Shown: in pieces, positions 10,495 to 16,332 of the stretch
Numbering within the stretch: the stretch's first letter is position 1
How the letters are laid out: each line of letters opens with the position of its first letter
Assembly (NCBI RefSeq): GCF_014054725.1
Contig: NZ_CP059563.1
Coordinates: forward strand, 893,749 to 957,748
Origin: Conchiformibius steedae
GTDB taxonomy: Bacteria > Pseudomonadota > Gammaproteobacteria > Burkholderiales > Neisseriaceae
Length of the DNA: 64,000 nt
Direction of reading: 5' to 3'
Program-made: the position numbers and the translations under genes
The notes under the pieces: model-generated
Database searches by the model: none
The model's input: only the letters and a program-made list of their open reading frames with translations
What the model was told of the DNA's origin: nothing

Positions 10495-11493
<999 letters not shown>

Positions 11494-11516
11494 ATTGAAA
11501 TTTTCAAACTGTTTTT

Positions 11517-12119
11517 ATGAACCAGAATAGTAATTTAATGCCAAACGGTGTGCCTGTCCGCCAAATCCGTGCCGTATATGACAACGATACCATCCGCGTT
11601 TATCAGGCATATAGCGATGCCATTGCCGATACGGCTTTGGCGAACGGACGTTTTGTATCGCCACTGTTTAAAATGACGCGGATGACTTGGATTAAGCCCT
11701 CGTTTTTATGGATGATGTACCGTGCGGGCTGGGGTTTGAAAGATGCAGGGCAAAAACGTATTTTGGCAATCGATATCCGCCGAGATGGTTTTGAATGGGC
11801 GTTGGCACACGCGATTGGCAGCCGCAAACCCGATAATATGGATGCAGCGCAATGGCAATACGCCAAAGAAACGCATCCTGTGCGGATACAATGGGACCCC
11901 GAACGCGATATTCATTTGCAGCCTTTGCCTTACCGTGCCATTCAAATCGGTTTGACTGGTGAGGCAGTTCAGCATTATGTGAATGATTGGATTGTAAGCA
12001 TAAATGAAGTAACCGATACGGCGCACCGCATCCGTGATTTGGTCGTGCAGGGCGAAACGGCTGCTGCTGCGGCTTTGCTGCCTGTAGAGTGTGAATATCC
12101 TTATATTAACTTGAGATAA
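11517..12119 (+). CDS. DUF4291-like protein (MTWIKPSFLWMMYRAGWG motif), function unknown
   Basis: 200-aa ORF with a strongly conserved-looking motif; first gene of the insertion between pheS and pheT. Confidence 0.6.
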   Translation: MNQNSNLMPNGVPVRQIRAVYDNDTIRVYQAYSDAIADTALANGRFVSPLFKMTRMTWIKPSFLWMMYRAGWGLKDAGQKRILAIDIRRDGFEWALAHAIGSRKPDNMDAAQWQYAKETHPVRIQWDPERDIHLQPLPYRAIQIGLTGEAVQHYVNDWIVSINEVTDTAHRIRDLVVQGETAAAAALLPVECEYPYINLR

Positions 12120-12123
12120 CAGT

Positions 12124-12444
12124 ATGTCAGAACTTTCTATTCAGCCCCTGATTAATGCCGTTAAGCGCTTGCATGAGGGCTGGTTGCGTTATCTGCAGGA
12201 TACCGATGATGCCCAAATTCGGGATGGTTTAATTCAGCGTTTTGAGTTTACCTATGAAATTAGCCATAAGATTTTAAAGCGTTATTTGGAATATACTTCC
12301 GCCAATCCAACCCAATTTGACGGCATGAGTTTTCAAGACCTTATCCGTACAGCCAACGAACAAAACCTACTATTAGGCGATTGGACGGATTGGAAACAAT
12401 ACCGCGATATGCGCGCCCGAACCAGCCACACTTATGACGAATAA
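12124..12444 (+). CDS. HEPN-domain protein, HI0074/HepT family (nucleotidyltransferase substrate-binding protein; candidate toxin)
   Basis: GLIQRFEFTYEISHKILKRYLEY core and a C-terminal RARTSHTYDE (Rx4HxY HEPN motif); the ORF ends 2 aa after the motif. Confidence 0.75.
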   Translation: MSELSIQPLINAVKRLHEGWLRYLQDTDDAQIRDGLIQRFEFTYEISHKILKRYLEYTSANPTQFDGMSFQDLIRTANEQNLLLGDWTDWKQYRDMRARTSHTYDE

Positions 12445-12524
12445 ACCGCGCTGGCGGTGGTGGCAGGTATAGAAAAGTTCTTAACTGAAGCCCAATTTTT
12501 ACAACAGCGTTTATCGGAAAAATA

Positions 12525-12767
12525 ATGGGATTGTCTATACCTTCCGAGCAGTTGCAAATCGTTCAAAGTATTTTGCAAAAACACGTTCCGCAACGTAGTG
12601 TGTTGGCATTTGGTTCGCGGGTTCAAGGCAATGCCAAGCCTTATTCTGATTTGGATTTTGCAATATTGGGCAATGAGCCGTTATCTATTGCCGAACACGC
12701 GGATTTAACAAGCGATGCAGTTGCAAATCGTTCAAAGTATTTTGCAAAAACACATCCCGCAACGTAG
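12525..12767 (+). pseudogene. N-terminal fragment of a minimal nucleotidyltransferase (MntA/HI0073-like), frameshifted by a tandem duplication
   Basis: GSRVQGNAKPYSDLD NTase motif; after ADLTSD the reading frame runs out of phase into repeat copy 2 and stops. Confidence 0.6.
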
Positions 12768-12885
12768 TGTGTGGGCATTTGGTTCGCGGGTTCAAGGCAA
12801 TGCCAAGCCTTATTCTGATTTGGATTTGGTAATATTGGGCAATGAGCCGTTATCTATTGCTGAACACGCGGATTTAACAAGCGAT
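12548..12885 (+). repeat. imperfect direct tandem duplication (2 x 169 bp) inside the MNT gene
   Basis: copy 1 at 12548-12716 and copy 2 at 12717-12885, about 5 mismatches; the unit length is not a multiple of 3. Confidence 0.9.
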
Positions 12886-13953
12886 TTTTCTGAAAGCGAT
12901 TTGCCGTGGAAAGTGGATATTGTGGATTGGTGCTTAATTAGTGATGAATTCCGTCAGATTATTCAACAACAATATTATGAGCTTCAAAAAATGAAAAAAT
13001 TAAGTTTTCCTGAATTGGCGATAAAAGTGATGCGTGAATTTAACCGTCCTGCTACGGTGGATGAATTGTGGCAGTATGTTCAAGAAAAACAACTTTATAT
13101 AGATTTGGAAGCCTATGATGCCAATCGTGGTGGGTTTAAAGGCAAAACACCAGACATTACTTTTTGCGCAAGAATCTATACTTTGGCAAAACAAGGGCGT
13201 TATTTTAAAGAGGTGGGTAATGCTTCGCCAAAACAGTTTGTTTTATTAGAGCATTCTTTGCCTAAGCACATTGATGTTGAACAGAGATTAAATGCTTCTG
13301 ATACCACTCAAGCCAAGAAGCAAATTAAAGAACGTGAGTTGCATAAATTTCTTAGCCATTATTTGTATCACAATAAAGCATTTGGCGCTTATTCGCGCAC
13401 TATTTTTCATGAAAGCAGCAAAAAAGGGCAAAAGGGCGAGGATAAATGGCTTTATCCTGATATGGTAGCGGTGCATTTTGAATATGAGGGTTATCAGCAT
13501 CATCATGTTTTAAGTTTTGTGAAGAAGTTTGATATTTTGCCAGTAAAGGTTTTTTCTTTTGAGTTAAAACGAGATTTGGGCTTCTCTAATTATAAACAAT
13601 CTTTTTTTCAGGCAGTCAGTAATTCCAGTTGGGCAAACGAGGGTTATTTAGTTGCGTTGAATATTGATTCGGACAGTCAGTTTCTTGAGGCATTGCAAAA
13701 ATTAAGTCAAAGCTTTGGTATTGGTATTATTCAGTTGGATATTGTGCAGATAGAAAACAGTAGGGTGATTTCGCCTGCACGTTATAAGGAAAAAATGGAT
13801 TATTCGGTGGTAAACGAGCTGGCAAGTAAAAATGAAGACTTTAAAGATTTTTTGAAAACGGTTACTGATTTTGACCCAAAAAGTAAAGAACGTTTTTTAA
13901 GTGAGTTTGACCCGATTTTAACGGCTGAAAAACTAAATGATACAATATATTGA
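12715..13953 (+). CDS. MNT (nucleotidyltransferase) domain fused to a HARE-HTH-like region and a C-terminal putative PD-(D/E)xK nuclease-like region
   Basis: starts at an ATG created at the duplication junction. Residues 1-95 form a polymerase-beta-type NTase (GSRVQG...SDLDL). Residues ~100-170 have the HARE-HTH pattern (PELAIKVMREF..PATVDELWQYV...GKTPDITF). The C-terminal region has a D...ELK arrangement. The gene is AT-rich. Confidence 0.55.
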   Translation: MQLQIVQSILQKHIPQRSVWAFGSRVQGNAKPYSDLDLVILGNEPLSIAEHADLTSDFSESDLPWKVDIVDWCLISDEFRQIIQQQYYELQKMKKLSFPELAIKVMREFNRPATVDELWQYVQEKQLYIDLEAYDANRGGFKGKTPDITFCARIYTLAKQGRYFKEVGNASPKQFVLLEHSLPKHIDVEQRLNASDTTQAKKQIKERELHKFLSHYLYHNKAFGAYSRTIFHESSKKGQKGEDKWLYPDMVAVHFEYEGYQHHHVLSFVKKFDILPVKVFSFELKRDLGFSNYKQSFFQAVSNSSWANEGYLVALNIDSDSQFLEALQKLSQSFGIGIIQLDIVQIENSRVISPARYKEKMDYSVVNELASKNEDFKDFLKTVTDFDPKSKERFLSEFDPILTAEKLNDTIY

Positions 13954-13971
13954 TAAGAAAGTGCAAAAGAT

Positions 13972-16332
13972 ATGCAATTCCCCTACTCATGGCTAAAAAC
14001 CCAAGCCAACCCCGATTTATCCGCCGAACAACTTGCCCACCTGCTAACCATGGCGGGTTTGGAAGTGGAAGACAGCGAAGCCGCCGCGCCCGATTTTTCG
14101 GGTGTGGTGGTGGCGGATGTAAAATCCGTTGAAAAACATCCCGATGCCGACCGTTTAAACATCACCCAAGTGGATGCTGGCACGGGCGAACTGTTGCAGA
14201 TTGTGTGCGGTGCGCCCAATGTGCGTGCGGGCATGAAAGTACCGTGTGCCTTGGCGGGGGCAGTGCTGCCGGGTAATTTCAAAATCAAACCGACCAAAAT
14301 GCGCGGACAGGTTTCCAACGGTATGTTGTGTTCCGCCAAAGAATTGGGGCTGCCTGAAAACGGCGTAGATGGTTTGCTGGAACTGCCCGCCGATGCGCCC
14401 GTTGGTACAAACTTGCGCGATTATCTGGATTTGGACGACACTGTTTTTACCTTAAAAATCACGCCCAACCGCACCGATTGTTTAAGCATCAAAGGTTTGG
14501 CACGCGAAACCGCCGCGCTGACCCAATGCGCGTTTACCCCGCCTGCCGTGCCTGCCGTTGCCGAACAGTCTGAACACCGCTTCCCCGTACGCATTGACGC
14601 GCCTGCCGATTGCGGACGTTTTCTCAGCCGCCCGATTCGCGGTGTGAACGCTCGCGCCGCATCGCCTGAATGGCTGGTGCGCCGTCTGGAACGCTGCGGC
14701 GTGCGCAGCATTTCCGCGTTGGTGGACATTGGCAATTATGTGATGCTGGAATTGGGTCAGCCGATGCACGTTTTTGATGCCGACAAACTTTCAGGCAGCC
14801 TGATTGTTCGCCGTGCCGAAAACGGTGAAACTTTAGCGTGTTTAAATGGAAAAACCGTTACCTTACAAGACAATACGCTAGTAGTTGCAGACGAAAAAGG
14901 CGCGTTAAGCATGGCGGGTTTGATGGGTGGCGAATCCAGCGCGGTCAGCGACGACACGCAAAACATTGTGTTGGAAAGCGCGTGGTTTGCGCCCGAAATT
15001 ATTGCAGGCAAATCACGCCAATACGGTTTTGGTTCGGATTCGTCTTTCCGCTTTGAACGCGGTGTGGATTTTGCCTTAACCCGCGAAGCGATGGAACGCG
15101 CCACCGCCTTGGTGCTGGAAATCTGCGGCGGCGAAGCGGGGCAGATTGTTGAAGCAACAGGCGATTTGCCCAAACGTGCGGCGGTAAACGTACGCACGGC
15201 GCGGGTGGCGAAGCTGTTGGGTGTAGATGTGCCTGCACCGCGCATTGAGCGTATTTTGGCGGATTTGGGTTTGCAGCCTCAGCCTACCGCAGACGGTTTT
15301 GCCGTGACTGTGCCGCCGTTCCGTTTTGATATTGCCATTGAAGCGGATTTGATTGAAGAAATCGCCCGCGTTTACGGTTACGAAAACATCCCCGACGATG
15401 CCCCGCGCGGACGTTTGGCGATGTTGCCGCTGCCTGAAAACCGCCGTCCGCGTTTTGACGTGTACCGCCACATGGCGAGCCGCGGTTTCCGCGAGATGGT
15501 CAGCTATGCCTTTACCGATGAAGCATGGGAACGCGATTTTGCCAATAACAACAATCCTATGCGTTTACAAAACCCCTTGGCGGCGCAATACAGCGTGATG
15601 CGTTCCAACCTGATTGGCAGCATGGTGGAAGTGTTGAAACACAATTTAAACCGCAAACACAGCCGCGTGCGCCTGTTTGAAATTGCCCGCGTATTTGCCA
15701 AAAATGCAGACGGCAGCGTGCGCCAACACGAGCGCATCGGTGCGTTGGCGCATGGCGCAGCCTTGCCCGAACAATGGGGCGAAAAAGCGCGCGCGGTGGA
15801 TTTTTACGATGTCAAAGCCGATGTGGAAAGCCTGTTGGCAGGGCAGAACGCGGTGTTTGTCGCCGCCGAACATCCCGCTTTGCACCCAGGGCGCAGCGCC
15901 AATATTGTGATTGACGGCAAAACCGTTGGTTTTATCGGCGAACTGCATCCCAAGTGGTTGCAGCAATACGATTTGCCCGCCGCGCCTTTGCTGTTTGAGC
16001 TGGATTTGGCGGTGGTGCAGCAGCGCGACAAAACCGTTTACCGTCCCGTTTCCAAATTCCAAGCGGTACGCCGCGATTTGGCATTTGTGTTGCCCGAAAG
16101 CACCGCTTATGCGGATTTGGAACAGGCGTTGCGCGGCGTGTCCAGCCCCTTAATCCGCGAAATTGCGCTGTTTGACGTGTATCGCGGCGCAGGTTTGCCC
16201 GACAATATGAAAAGCATGGCGGTGAAAATCCTGTTGCAGGACGACGATGCCACGCTCACCGATGAAGCGGTAGAAGCGGTGGTGGCGCAGTTGTTGGCGG
16301 CGGCGGAAAGCGTGGGCGCGAAATTGCGTTAA
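13972..16332 (+). CDS. pheT: phenylalanine--tRNA ligase beta subunit
   Basis: 786 aa with tRNA-binding, B3/4, B5 and FDX-ACB domain order; MQFPYSWLK N-terminus. Confidence 0.95.
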   Translation: MQFPYSWLKTQANPDLSAEQLAHLLTMAGLEVEDSEAAAPDFSGVVVADVKSVEKHPDADRLNITQVDAGTGELLQIVCGAPNVRAGMKVPCALAGAVLPGNFKIKPTKMRGQVSNGMLCSAKELGLPENGVDGLLELPADAPVGTNLRDYLDLDDTVFTLKITPNRTDCLSIKGLARETAALTQCAFTPPAVPAVAEQSEHRFPVRIDAPADCGRFLSRPIRGVNARAASPEWLVRRLERCGVRSISALVDIGNYVMLELGQPMHVFDADKLSGSLIVRRAENGETLACLNGKTVTLQDNTLVVADEKGALSMAGLMGGESSAVSDDTQNIVLESAWFAPEIIAGKSRQYGFGSDSSFRFERGVDFALTREAMERATALVLEICGGEAGQIVEATGDLPKRAAVNVRTARVAKLLGVDVPAPRIERILADLGLQPQPTADGFAVTVPPFRFDIAIEADLIEEIARVYGYENIPDDAPRGRLAMLPLPENRRPRFDVYRHMASRGFREMVSYAFTDEAWERDFANNNNPMRLQNPLAAQYSVMRSNLIGSMVEVLKHNLNRKHSRVRLFEIARVFAKNADGSVRQHERIGALAHGAALPEQWGEKARAVDFYDVKADVESLLAGQNAVFVAAEHPALHPGRSANIVIDGKTVGFIGELHPKWLQQYDLPAAPLLFELDLAVVQQRDKTVYRPVSKFQAVRRDLAFVLPESTAYADLEQALRGVSSPLIREIALFDVYRGAGLPDNMKSMAVKILLQDDDATLTDEAVEAVVAQLLAAAESVGAKLR

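What the first reader, a model, noticed from the sequence alone, without database searches (positions are those of the whole stretch)
12548..12885. Imperfect 169-bp tandem duplication that splits the MntA-like gene and creates a junction ATG
Copy 1 (12548-12716) and copy 2 (12717-12885) differ at about five positions. The unit is 169 bp, which is 3n+1, so the ORF beginning at 12525 (MGLSIPSEQLQIVQ...) leaves frame at the junction and stops at 12767. The junction sequence agcgAT|Gcag creates a new ATG at 12715 that is in frame with copy 2 and the whole downstream fusion protein, but it has no obvious Shine-Dalgarno. Unequal recombination between the copies would restore a single ~470-aa ORF with the native RBS. 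This could therefore be an inactivated gene, a reversible duplication-based ON/OFF switch of a toxin-antitoxin/defence gene, or an assembly artefact.
Basis: seen in the sequence. Interest (0 to 1): 0.6.

Follow-up and report, generated by a model that had tools for sequence, protein, structure and literature searches.

The report
Old tandem duplication in decaying antitoxin gene
A real 169-bp tandem duplication, found only in the type strain of the dog-mouth bacterium Conchiformibius steedae, splits the antitoxin gene of a toxin-antitoxin pair whose toxin gene also carries a stop mutation, so it looks like ordinary gene decay rather than a genetic switch.

Summary
The 169-bp copies (12548-12716 and 12717-12885) differ at 6 sites, not about 5. 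Collapse would give a 419-aa ORF, not about 470 aa. The window is Conchiformibius steedae DSM 2580.

The duplication is not an assembly artefact. NCBI annotates the 412-aa junction-ATG ORF. Short-read assemblies of at least 8 sequencing runs break exactly where a two-copy k=31 graph predicts.

Five contigs from other C. steedae strains carry one copy. Against them, each copy has 3 private substitutions and the two copies share none. That matches the strain's private divergence in the flanks, so the duplication is old, not a fast switch.

The partner toxin gene (HepT-like, 12124-12444) has a strain-specific nonsense codon (GAA to TAA at 12442) just after its RX4HXY motif. Both halves of this type VII-like module are therefore damaged.

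The junction-ATG ORF still encodes the whole nucleotidyltransferase domain. It is fused, through a lost stop codon at a cassette junction, to a winged-helix plus PD-(D/E)xK nuclease-like protein. The island sits in the pheS-pheT site.

Two same-strain contigs show single-copy mosaics. Raw reads are needed to tell real collapse from graph simplification.

The parts
12548..12716 (+). Copy 1 of the 169-bp tandem duplication. It carries GSX10DXD and 3 private derived substitutions, all nonsynonymous: 12585 A>G (I>V), 12604 G>T (W>L), 12659 G>T (L>F).
12717..12885 (+). Copy 2 of the duplication. It carries 3 private derived substitutions: 12756 T>C (synonymous), 12830 C>T (A>V), 12861 C>T (synonymous).
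12715..12717 (+). Junction ATG: AT from the end of copy 1 plus G from the start of copy 2. It replaces native codon E8 and is in frame with copy 2 and everything downstream.
   Evidence: About 3.7% of all possible frameshifting duplications in this gene would give such an ATG.
12525..12767 (+). ORF1, 80 aa. It has the native start and an N-terminal nucleotidyltransferase fragment with GSX10DXD, followed by a frameshifted tail and TAG.
12715..13953 (+). ORF2, 412 aa (= WP_169733440.1 / URD67117.1). It contains the complete MNT/Polbeta nucleotidyltransferase domain, lacking only native residues 1-7, fused to the 320-aa winged-helix/nuclease-like protein.
12988..12990 (+). AAA codon where C. steedae strains without the downstream cassette have the nucleotidyltransferase stop codon TAA. 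Similarity between the two cassette types ends here, and this creates the in-frame fusion.
12991..13953 (+). Coding sequence of a protein that is a stand-alone 316-340 aa gene elsewhere (= QMT34522.1). It has an N-terminal winged helix (weak HARE-HTH match) and a C-terminal PD-(D/E)xK-like domain with invariant D157, E191, K193.
12124..12444 (+). Truncated HepT-like (HI0074 / NTase_sub_bind) toxin gene, 106 aa. RX4HXY lies at residues 97-104 and the protein ends at a premature stop.
12442..12444 (+). Strain-specific nonsense codon TAA. Five other C. steedae contigs have GAA and Alysiella crassa has AAA (Lys). It removes the last 27 residues.
12445..12525 (+). Former 3' end of hepT, still in frame. 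Its original stop TAA (12523-12525) overlaps the nucleotidyltransferase ATG by one base (TAATG), the site of the lost translational coupling.
11517..12119 (+). DUF4291 gene, the first gene of the low-GC cassette (41% against 52% for the window).
10498..11493 (+). pheS, the conserved left flank of the variable pheS-pheT site.
13972..16332 (+). pheT, the conserved right flank of the variable site.

Best explanation
This is a genuine, one-off, non-homologous 169-bp tandem duplication inside the MntA-like nucleotidyltransferase (antitoxin) gene of a HepT/MntA-type (type VII-like) toxin-antitoxin cassette. The cassette lies in the pheS-pheT variable site of Conchiformibius steedae DSM 2580.

Shown: the duplication shifts the frame by +1, so the native start yields only an 80-aa fragment. 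A fortuitous junction ATG opens a 412-aa ORF that keeps the whole nucleotidyltransferase domain, fused to a downstream winged-helix/PD-(D/E)xK nuclease-like protein. The partner toxin gene has a strain-specific nonsense codon (E107*) two residues after its RX4HXY motif, which deletes its last 27 residues.

Inferred: with the toxin disabled, selection on the antitoxin is relaxed. The duplication was therefore tolerated, became fixed in this lineage, and has persisted long enough for each copy to gain three private substitutions. The truncation also uncouples the antitoxin start from toxin translation. The locus is thus a decaying toxin-antitoxin module in which both partners are damaged, not a high-frequency switch. 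Unequal recombination or slippage between the copies can restore a 419-aa ORF in principle. It is expected to be rare, and nothing obvious would select for it.
For: The repeat and reading frames are confirmed.

One assembly of this strain is PacBio and a second genome project exists.

Logan contigs from 6 runs end at 12577. Contigs from 3 runs start at 12831 or 12798. A k=31 graph of the two-copy sequence predicts exactly these breaks, and a single-copy sequence predicts none.

Other C. steedae strains are single copy. L039-L042 have HepT (133 aa) plus a 98-aa nucleotidyltransferase. L038 has a 419-aa fusion. They differ from the window by 2.3-3.9% over the flanking and locus DNA.

All five contigs carry A, T, G, G, C, C at the six variable sites, so each copy has 3 derived changes and the copies share none. 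The window's private divergence in the flanks is 7/575 and 27/1505, against 3/169 per copy. None of the four derived amino-acid states occurs in any of the four natural protein alleles.

The toxin codon is TAA in the window only and GAA in the five others. The intact allele matches HI0074 profile positions 7-121 of 123, the window's only 7-97.

GSX10DXD and RX4HXY are both present. They are the motifs that define HepT/MntA pairs (PMC7641770).
Against: ORF2 lacks only 7 poorly conserved N-terminal residues. Its junction ATG has as good (that is, as poor) an SD as the native start, so the antitoxin-nuclease fusion may still be made and 'inactivated' may be too strong.

The order of the two lesions cannot be inferred.

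The six differences could alternatively mean that the copies came from two alleles, for example through illegitimate recombination during transformation, rather than from long in-situ divergence.

Two same-strain Logan contigs (L025, L033) are single-copy mosaics of copy 1 and copy 2, and 4 of 7 runs in one series pass position 12577 without a break. My coverage-gap simulation does not readily explain this.
Confidence: 0.75

Rival explanations
1. Reversible duplication-based ON/OFF switch. Unequal recombination or slippage between the two copies collapses the duplication at appreciable frequency. This restores the 419-aa MntA-nuclease fusion with its native start, so cultures are mixtures of two-copy (OFF) and single-copy (ON) cells.
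For: Two Logan contigs are identical to the window over 5-6 kb outside the repeat, apart from the last base of L033 at its contig end. Both carry a single unit, with haplotypes GTTTCT (L025, SRR17498950) and GTTGTT (L033, SRR17498947). Each is a prefix of copy 1 joined to a suffix of copy 2, with different crossovers, as collapse predicts. In the series SRR17498939-53, 4 of 7 runs pass 12577 without the expected break, and all four follow the copy-1 branch. Random coverage gaps gave 'path intact, junction lost' in at most 6.5% of simulations. Duplication-based phase variation exists in pneumococcal cap3A (Waite et al. 2001, as cited in PMC11163986).
Against: Both crossovers lie exactly where a k=31 graph merges the copies (a 54-nt and a 30-nt identical stretch). 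The two haplotypes are also possible outcomes of bubble popping in the assembler if the 85-nt junction path is dropped (and my reasoning). The copies have diverged by 3.6% with no shared private change, whereas frequent collapse or gene conversion would homogenise or remove them. From my own knowledge, not tested here: deletion between about 170-bp repeats that are 4% diverged is rare in mismatch-repair-proficient cells. Reaching a majority in several cultures would therefore need strong selection, which a dead toxin does not supply. Runs whose accession numbers suggest dates from about 2016 to 2024 all show the two-copy signature (the dating is an inference).
Confidence: 0.12
2. Assembly artefact: the genome has one copy and the assembler duplicated it, or the reverse.
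For: Tandem repeats of a few hundred bp are a classic place for mis-assembly. Two Logan contigs show one copy.
Against: The copies differ at 6 sites, and an artefactual duplication of one template would give identical copies. The 412-aa ORF that exists only with the junction is annotated by NCBI on 3 contigs. PacBio reads easily span 338 bp. Independent short-read assemblies contain both copy variants and break at the two-copy branch points.
Confidence: 0.02
3. Functionally neutral remodelling. ORF2 is translated from the junction ATG, or by reinitiation near the ORF1 stop (GTG 12769 lies 2 nt after TAG 12767). It works as a normal nucleotidyltransferase-nuclease fusion, so the duplication merely swapped the 5' end and added an 80-aa leader ORF.
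For: ORF2 retains Pfam Polbeta positions 3-78 of 93 and GSX10DXD. The missing 7 residues are variable in length and sequence among relatives. The SD strength at 12715 equals that of the native start. Copy 2 has 2 synonymous and 1 nonsynonymous change, against 0 and 3 in copy 1. An in-frame junction ATG is expected for only about 3.7% of frameshifting duplications, which hints at survivorship.
Against: There is no expression data. The synonymous/nonsynonymous contrast rests on 6 sites and is not significant. Ribosomes translating ORF1 run over the junction ATG. The toxin it would neutralise is truncated.
Confidence: 0.3

Closest known systems
HepT/MntA (HEPN/MNT) type VII toxin-antitoxin pairs, e.g. 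Shewanella oneidensis SO_3166/SO_3165 and Haemophilus HI0074/HI0073
   Same: The Pfam pair PF08780 (NTase_sub_bind) plus PF01909/PF18765 sits on adjacent genes. RX4HXY lies at residues 97-104, the same numbering as SO_3166 Y104. GSX10DXD is present in the nucleotidyltransferase. In intact alleles the stop and start overlap.
   Different: The gene order is toxin first, then nucleotidyltransferase. In the pairs tested in PMC7641770 the MNT gene is upstream. The nucleotidyltransferase scores below NCBIfam's MntA equivalog cut-off (39-45 against 60 bits). In this strain the toxin is truncated, and the antitoxin is split by the duplication and fused to a nuclease-like protein. Neither toxicity nor AMPylation has been tested.
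Duplication-based phase variation of pneumococcal capsule gene cap3A (Waite et al. 2001, as cited in PMC11163986)
   Same: A tandem duplication inside an ORF turns the gene off, and precise loss of one copy would turn it on again.
   Different: From my own recollection of the cap3A work: there the duplications are recent, arise repeatedly at different sites, have identical copies and revert at measurable rates. Here there is one fixed junction, the copies are 3.6% diverged, reversion has not been demonstrated, and the downstream ORF is left nearly intact.
Minimal mobile elements of Neisseria (Saunders & Snyder 2002; Snyder et al. 2007), including the pheS/pheT site (PMC3082526)
   Same: Conserved pheS and pheT flank alternative whole-gene cassettes with no mobility genes. 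The contents seen are the nuclease-like gene alone (Neisseria and Kingella MAGs), DUF4291-HepT-MntA (four C. steedae contigs), or both (DSM 2580 and L038). The island has low GC.
   Different: The genus is different (Conchiformibius). The cargo is a toxin-antitoxin pair plus a nuclease-like gene, not the type II restriction-modification system reported for meningococci. One cassette junction falls on a stop codon and fuses two genes.
Restriction-endonuclease-fold (PD-(D/E)xK) proteins with an N-terminal HARE-HTH/winged helix
   Different: There is no sequence match to any solved structure, NCBIfam model or PADLOC model. The HARE-HTH Pfam hit is below its cut-off (21.3 against 25.9 bits). Every source that names it calls it hypothetical (one says 'membrane protein', another 'HTH HARE-type domain-containing protein').

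Membership tests
HepT/MntA type VII (Class I HEPN/MNT) toxin-antitoxin | MNT-domain protein with a GSX10DXD motif | tested here: met
   GSRVQGNAKPYSDLD is present in both copies, at ORF1 residue 30 and ORF2 residue 23. PF01909 scores 41.6 bits against a cut-off of 21, and PF18765 scores 42.9 against 26.9. The motif definition is from PMC7641770.
HepT/MntA type VII (Class I HEPN/MNT) toxin-antitoxin | Adjacent HEPN-type protein (PF01934 or PF08780) with an RX4HXY motif | tested here: met
   PF08780 scores 96.4 bits. TIGR01987 HI0074 scores 72.6 against a cut-off of 55.8. RARTSHTY lies at residues 97-104. The protein is truncated at residue 106 in this strain.
HepT/MntA type VII (Class I HEPN/MNT) toxin-antitoxin | Score above the curated NCBIfam MntA_antitoxin equivalog cut-off (NF047752, 60 bits) | tested here: not met
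   The scores are 39.4 bits for the window's ORF2, 45.3 for the intact 98-aa allele and 44.6 for the 419-aa allele. It is MntA-like but not an NCBIfam equivalog.
HepT/MntA type VII (Class I HEPN/MNT) toxin-antitoxin | The toxin is an RNase that arrests growth, and the antitoxin neutralises it by oligo-AMPylation of the motif tyrosine | not testable with these tools
   This needs toxicity and AMPylation assays.
Duplication-mediated phase variation (cap3A type) | A tandem duplication within an ORF that disrupts the reading frame | tested here: met
   169 = 3n+1, and ORF1 stops at 12767.
Duplication-mediated phase variation (cap3A type) | Precise reversion to single copy at measurable frequency within a clonal population | tested here: inconclusive
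   Two same-strain Logan contigs are single-copy mosaics. Their crossovers coincide with k=31 graph merge points.
Duplication-mediated phase variation (cap3A type) | Recent, recurrent events: identical copies, and different junctions in different variants | tested here: not met
   The copies differ at 6 of 169 sites, with 3 private derived changes each. There is one junction only, and the five other strains' contigs are all single copy.
Minimal mobile element (pheS-pheT site) | [quoted passage not shown] | tested here: met
   Between pheS and pheT, L009 and L005 carry the nuclease-like gene alone. L039 shows the full pheS-to-pheT site with DUF4291-HepT-NTase, and the shorter contigs L040-L042 show the same genes up to pheT. 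The window has both cassettes. L038 shows HepT, the fusion and pheT, but the contig starts within hepT. The definition is in PMC3082526.
Minimal mobile element (pheS-pheT site) | No transposase, integrase or other mobility gene in the cassette | tested here: met
   The only genes between 11494 and 13971 are DUF4291, HepT-like, the nucleotidyltransferase and the nuclease-like gene.
Minimal mobile element (pheS-pheT site) | Exchange by homologous recombination in the flanks after natural transformation | not testable with these tools
   The only evidence is circumstantial: DUS-like 12-mers are abundant in the window.
PD-(D/E)xK nuclease superfamily (the 320-aa C-terminal part) | A restriction-endonuclease-like fold with a conserved D...(D/E)xK motif | tested here: met

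The most novel reading that the evidence does not exclude
The diverged 169-bp duplication is a working recombinational switch. Under this reading, DSM 2580 cultures contain large subpopulations in which the two copies have collapsed at different crossover points, as in the contigs from SRR17498947 and SRR17498950. Collapse re-creates a 419-aa MntA-nuclease fusion with its native start. The two-copy state would be kept in nature by selection despite frequent loss.
Probability: 0.1. Interest if true: 0.5.

Novelty: new member of a known kind. Interest (0 to 1): 0.2.

Why it matters
Its importance is mainly practical.

First, it documents a toxin-antitoxin module caught decaying on both sides, with a toxin nonsense codon and an antitoxin frameshift duplication, inside a classic Neisseriaceae cassette-exchange site. 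This is the expected fate once a toxin is disabled.

Second, it warns annotators that WP_169733440.1 (412 aa) is the product of a junction-created start codon in a disrupted gene, and that the gene fusion comes from a stop codon lost at a cassette junction.

Third, it shows how the break points of short-read assemblies can stand in for read-level evidence of a tandem duplication.

If the minority reading were right and frequent collapse occurs in culture, this would be a rare case of duplication-based phase variation outside pneumococcal capsule genes.

The uncharacterised winged-helix/PD-(D/E)xK protein may be a more rewarding target than the duplication itself. It is widespread in Moraxella, Neisseriaceae and Campylobacterota and occupies a site known for restriction-modification cargo.

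Tried and rejected
- An exact look-up of the 412-aa and 80-aa ORFs in the contig index found nothing, although the 412-aa sequence is in the protein collection.
- Both scans of the JGI metagenome collection returned nothing, one for the junction 26-mer and one for the normal right-hand boundary. The collection apparently lacks C. steedae, so the negative junction result is uninformative.
- I could not link the SRR run numbers to a BioProject. The preprint's supplement is not held and no paper mentions the runs. That the runs are DSM 2580 cultures is inferred from 100% identity and from accession chronology.
- I considered a microhomology-mediated origin. The flanks show only a shifted 'CGA', which would give a 168-bp in-frame unit. 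The real unit is 169 bp with no microhomology at the junction.
- I considered that an A-tract slip at caaaaaATGaaaaaa caused the fusion. I rejected this because strains lacking the downstream cassette have TAA where the window has AAA, and similarity ends there.
- The Shine-Dalgarno argument is uninformative because all starts at this locus are weak.
- The promoter and terminator scans were at background level.
- PADLOC gave only a spurious-looking 'Type I specificity subunit' hit to the nucleotidyltransferase domain, plus weak PDC-S09 hits.
- A profile search of the PDB by sequence found nothing for the 320-aa protein.
- A coverage-gap simulation did not explain the single-copy contigs well. 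I could not run the real Logan/Minia pipeline.

Full report
**1. The observation**

Tandem Repeats Finder reports a single array at 12548-12885 with period 169, 2.0 copies, 96% matches, no indels and score 634.

A base-by-base comparison shows six mismatches, not about five. They are at 12585/12754, 12587/12756, 12604/12773, 12659/12828, 12661/12830 and 12692/12861. No other spacing under 2 kb in the 64-kb window shares 25-mers.

The ORF from ATG 12525 runs out of frame at the junction and stops at 12767, giving 80 aa. The junction GCGAT|GCAG makes ATG 12715, which heads a 412-aa ORF ending at 13953. Removing either copy restores a 419-aa ORF, not about 470 aa.

**2. Anatomy and surroundings**

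The repeat lies in a low-GC island (41% against 52% for the window) between pheS (10498-11493) and pheT (13972-16332). The island holds the following genes:
- a DUF4291 gene (11517-12119);
- a HepT-like gene (12124-12444), matching PF08780 at 96 bits and TIGR01987 HI0074 at 72.6 bits;
- the duplicated nucleotidyltransferase gene, matching PF01909 and PF18765.

The toxin-like protein has RX4HXY at residues 97-104. Each repeat copy carries a full GSX10DXD motif. These two motifs define HepT/MntA type VII pairs, in which MntA AMPylates the motif tyrosine (PMC7641770).

ORF2 lacks only native residues 1-7, which are variable among relatives. It covers Pfam Polbeta positions 3-78 of 93. ORF1 has the motif but loses everything after residue 64.

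**3. Organism, and why this is not an artefact**

The 412-aa ORF is identical to URD67117.1 / WP_169733440.1 of Conchiformibius steedae DSM 2580, which was seen on 3 contigs. Its 320-aa tail is identical to QMT34522.1. The strain has a PacBio assembly, CP059563, and a second genome project, GCF_023547005.1.

Look-ups of the flanking proteins returned Logan short-read contigs that are 100% identical to the window:
- Contigs from six runs end at exactly 12577.
- Contigs from two runs start at 12831.
- One contig starts at 12798.
- One contig ends at 12658.

A node-centric k=31 de Bruijn graph of the two-copy sequence predicts unitig ends at 12577, 12584, 12634, 12658 and 12691. It predicts starts at 12798 and 12831, among others. 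A single-copy sequence predicts no break at all. The reads of at least eight runs therefore contain both copies and the junction.

**4. Other strains, and the age of the duplication**

Five contigs from other C. steedae-like strains differ from the window by 2.3-3.9% over the flanking and locus DNA and carry one copy:
- L039-L042 have DUF4291, HepT (133 aa) and a 98-aa nucleotidyltransferase with its own TAA stop, followed by pheT. L039 also shows the end of pheS.
- L038 has an intact HepT 3' end, a single-copy 419-aa fusion, and then pheT.

All five have A, T, G, G, C, C at the six variable sites. That assigns three derived changes to each copy:
- Copy 1 has I>V, W>L and L>F, all nonsynonymous.
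- Copy 2 has two synonymous changes and A>V.

No private change is shared by both copies. The window's private divergence in the flanks is 7/575 on the left and 27/1505 in pheT, which is comparable to 3/169 per copy.

None of the derived amino-acid states occurs in the four natural protein alleles. I infer that the duplication is old. Even allowing a faster neutral rate, its age is a substantial fraction of the branch that separates DSM 2580 from the sampled strains.

An alternative is that the copies came from two alleles joined by illegitimate recombination. Either way, the copies have not been homogenised or lost for a long time.

**5. The partner toxin is also damaged**

Codon 107 of the HepT-like gene is TAA (12442-12444) in the window. 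It is GAA in all five other C. steedae contigs and Lys in Alysiella crassa.

The old reading frame continues intact to TAA 12523-12525, which overlaps the nucleotidyltransferase ATG (TAATG). The truncation removes 27 residues, corresponding to HI0074 profile positions 98-121.

I infer that the toxin is inactive. That would relax selection on the antitoxin. The truncation would also abolish translational coupling to the 12525 start. Which lesion came first cannot be told.

**6. The 'fusion' and the site**

Residues from ATG 12991 onward form a stand-alone 316-340 aa protein in Moraxella, Neisseria, Kingella, Eikenella, Alysiella, Campylobacter and Wolinella. Only the C. steedae cluster has it fused.

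In a Neisseria MAG and a Kingella MAG it is the only gene between pheS and pheT. Where strains L039-L042 have CTTCAA-TAA, the window and L038 have CTTCAA-AAA-ATG, and similarity between the two cassette types ends there. The fusion is therefore a by-product of a cassette junction that fell on the stop codon.

Alternative cassettes between conserved pheS and pheT without mobility genes fit the 'minimal mobile element' concept described for Neisseria. There, the pheS/pheT site carries a restriction-modification system (PMC3082526).

**7. Is it a switch?**

Two contigs from the same strain background carry a single unit. They are L025 (SRR17498950) and L033 (SRR17498947). Outside the repeat L025 has no difference from the window, and L033 differs only at the last base of the contig, over 5-6 kb in each. 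Their haplotypes are GTTTCT and GTTGTT. Each is a prefix of copy 1 joined to a suffix of copy 2, as collapse would give.

Both crossovers, however, lie in the 30-nt and 54-nt identical stretches where a k=31 graph merges the copies. If the 85-nt junction path is dropped, an assembler that pops bubbles can output these haplotypes (and my reasoning).

A simple simulation of random coverage gaps gave 'main path intact, junction path broken' in at most 6.5% of replicates. Yet 4 of 7 runs in the SRR17498939-53 series pass 12577, and all four follow the copy-1 branch. This remains unexplained (note).

Three points count against a real high-frequency switch:
- The copies have diverged, as set out in section 4.
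- There is no obvious selective benefit when the toxin is dead.
- From general knowledge, deletion between short repeats that are 4% diverged is rare in mismatch-repair-proficient cells.

I put the switch reading at about 0.1.

**8. Translation of ORF2**

All starts at this locus have weak SD pairing. The values are -3.5 kcal/mol at 12525, -3.3 at 12715, -1.9 at 12991, and 0 to -1.6 at pheS and pheT. The lack of an SD therefore says nothing.

GTG 12769 lies 2 nt after the ORF1 stop, so reinitiation is conceivable, though this is only an inference. About 3.7% of all possible frameshifting duplications in this gene would create an in-frame junction ATG. That is a mild coincidence which could reflect survivorship. 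Whether ORF2 is made is open.

**9. Comparison with known systems, and verdict**

The module works like a Class I HepT/MntA pair and meets the motif and Pfam criteria. It fails NCBIfam's MntA equivalog cut-off (39-45 against 60 bits), and its gene order is toxin first.

The duplication resembles cap3A-type phase variation only in form. It fails the criteria of identical copies and recurrent junctions.

The finding is real and correctly described. Biologically it is an ordinary, strain-specific, long-standing disruptive duplication in a decaying toxin-antitoxin cassette. I rate it a new member of a known kind, with interest 0.2.

Noticed in passing
window 12442-12444 (and 12445-12525): The HepT-like toxin gene has an in-frame TAA where five other C. 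steedae contigs have GAA. The old frame continues to a TAA that overlaps the next gene's ATG.
   Followed up: yes
window 12985-12993; L039 1455-1470: The nucleotidyltransferase is fused to the downstream gene because the TAA stop seen in other strains is AAA here. Sequence similarity between the two cassette types ends exactly at that codon.
   Followed up: yes
window 12991-13953; L001-L019: This is an uncharacterised 316-340 aa protein family with a winged helix plus a PD-(D/E)xK-like domain and invariant D157/E191/K193. It is widespread in Moraxella, Neisseriaceae, Campylobacter and Wolinella. It has no NCBIfam or PADLOC model and only a sub-threshold Pfam HARE-HTH hit. In Neisseria and Kingella MAGs it sits alone between pheS and pheT.
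   Followed up: partly
window 11494-13971; L005, L009, L038-L042: The pheS-pheT intergenic site holds at least three alternative cassette contents among Neisseriaceae. This fits the 'minimal mobile element' idea.
   Followed up: partly
L025 (SRR17498950), L033 (SRR17498947), L022 (SRR17498939), L028 (SRR17498951): In one run series, 4 of 7 Logan assemblies pass position 12577 without the break that a two-copy genome should cause, and two give complete single-copy mosaics. Chance coverage gaps do not readily explain this in simulation.
   Followed up: partly
whole window (e.g. the 12-mers AAGCTGCCTGAA x6 and GCTGCCTGAAAA x7): An over-represented DUS-like 12-mer resembles the AGGCTGCCTGAA dialect, which itself occurs 3 times. 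The canonical Neisseria GCCGTCTGAA is absent.
   Followed up: no
window 12715-13000 (protein residues 4-94): PADLOC's 'Type I specificity subunit' model PDLC03138 hits the nucleotidyltransferase domain at 5e-21, over profile positions 10-100 of 485. The likely reason is that the profile includes HsdS proteins with a fused N-terminal nucleotidyltransferase, so this is a trap for automated defence annotation.
   Followed up: no
window 11517-12119: A DUF4291 gene travels with the HepT/nucleotidyltransferase pair as one cassette in all C. steedae contigs that reach that far upstream. Its role and any link to the toxin-antitoxin pair are unknown.
   Followed up: no
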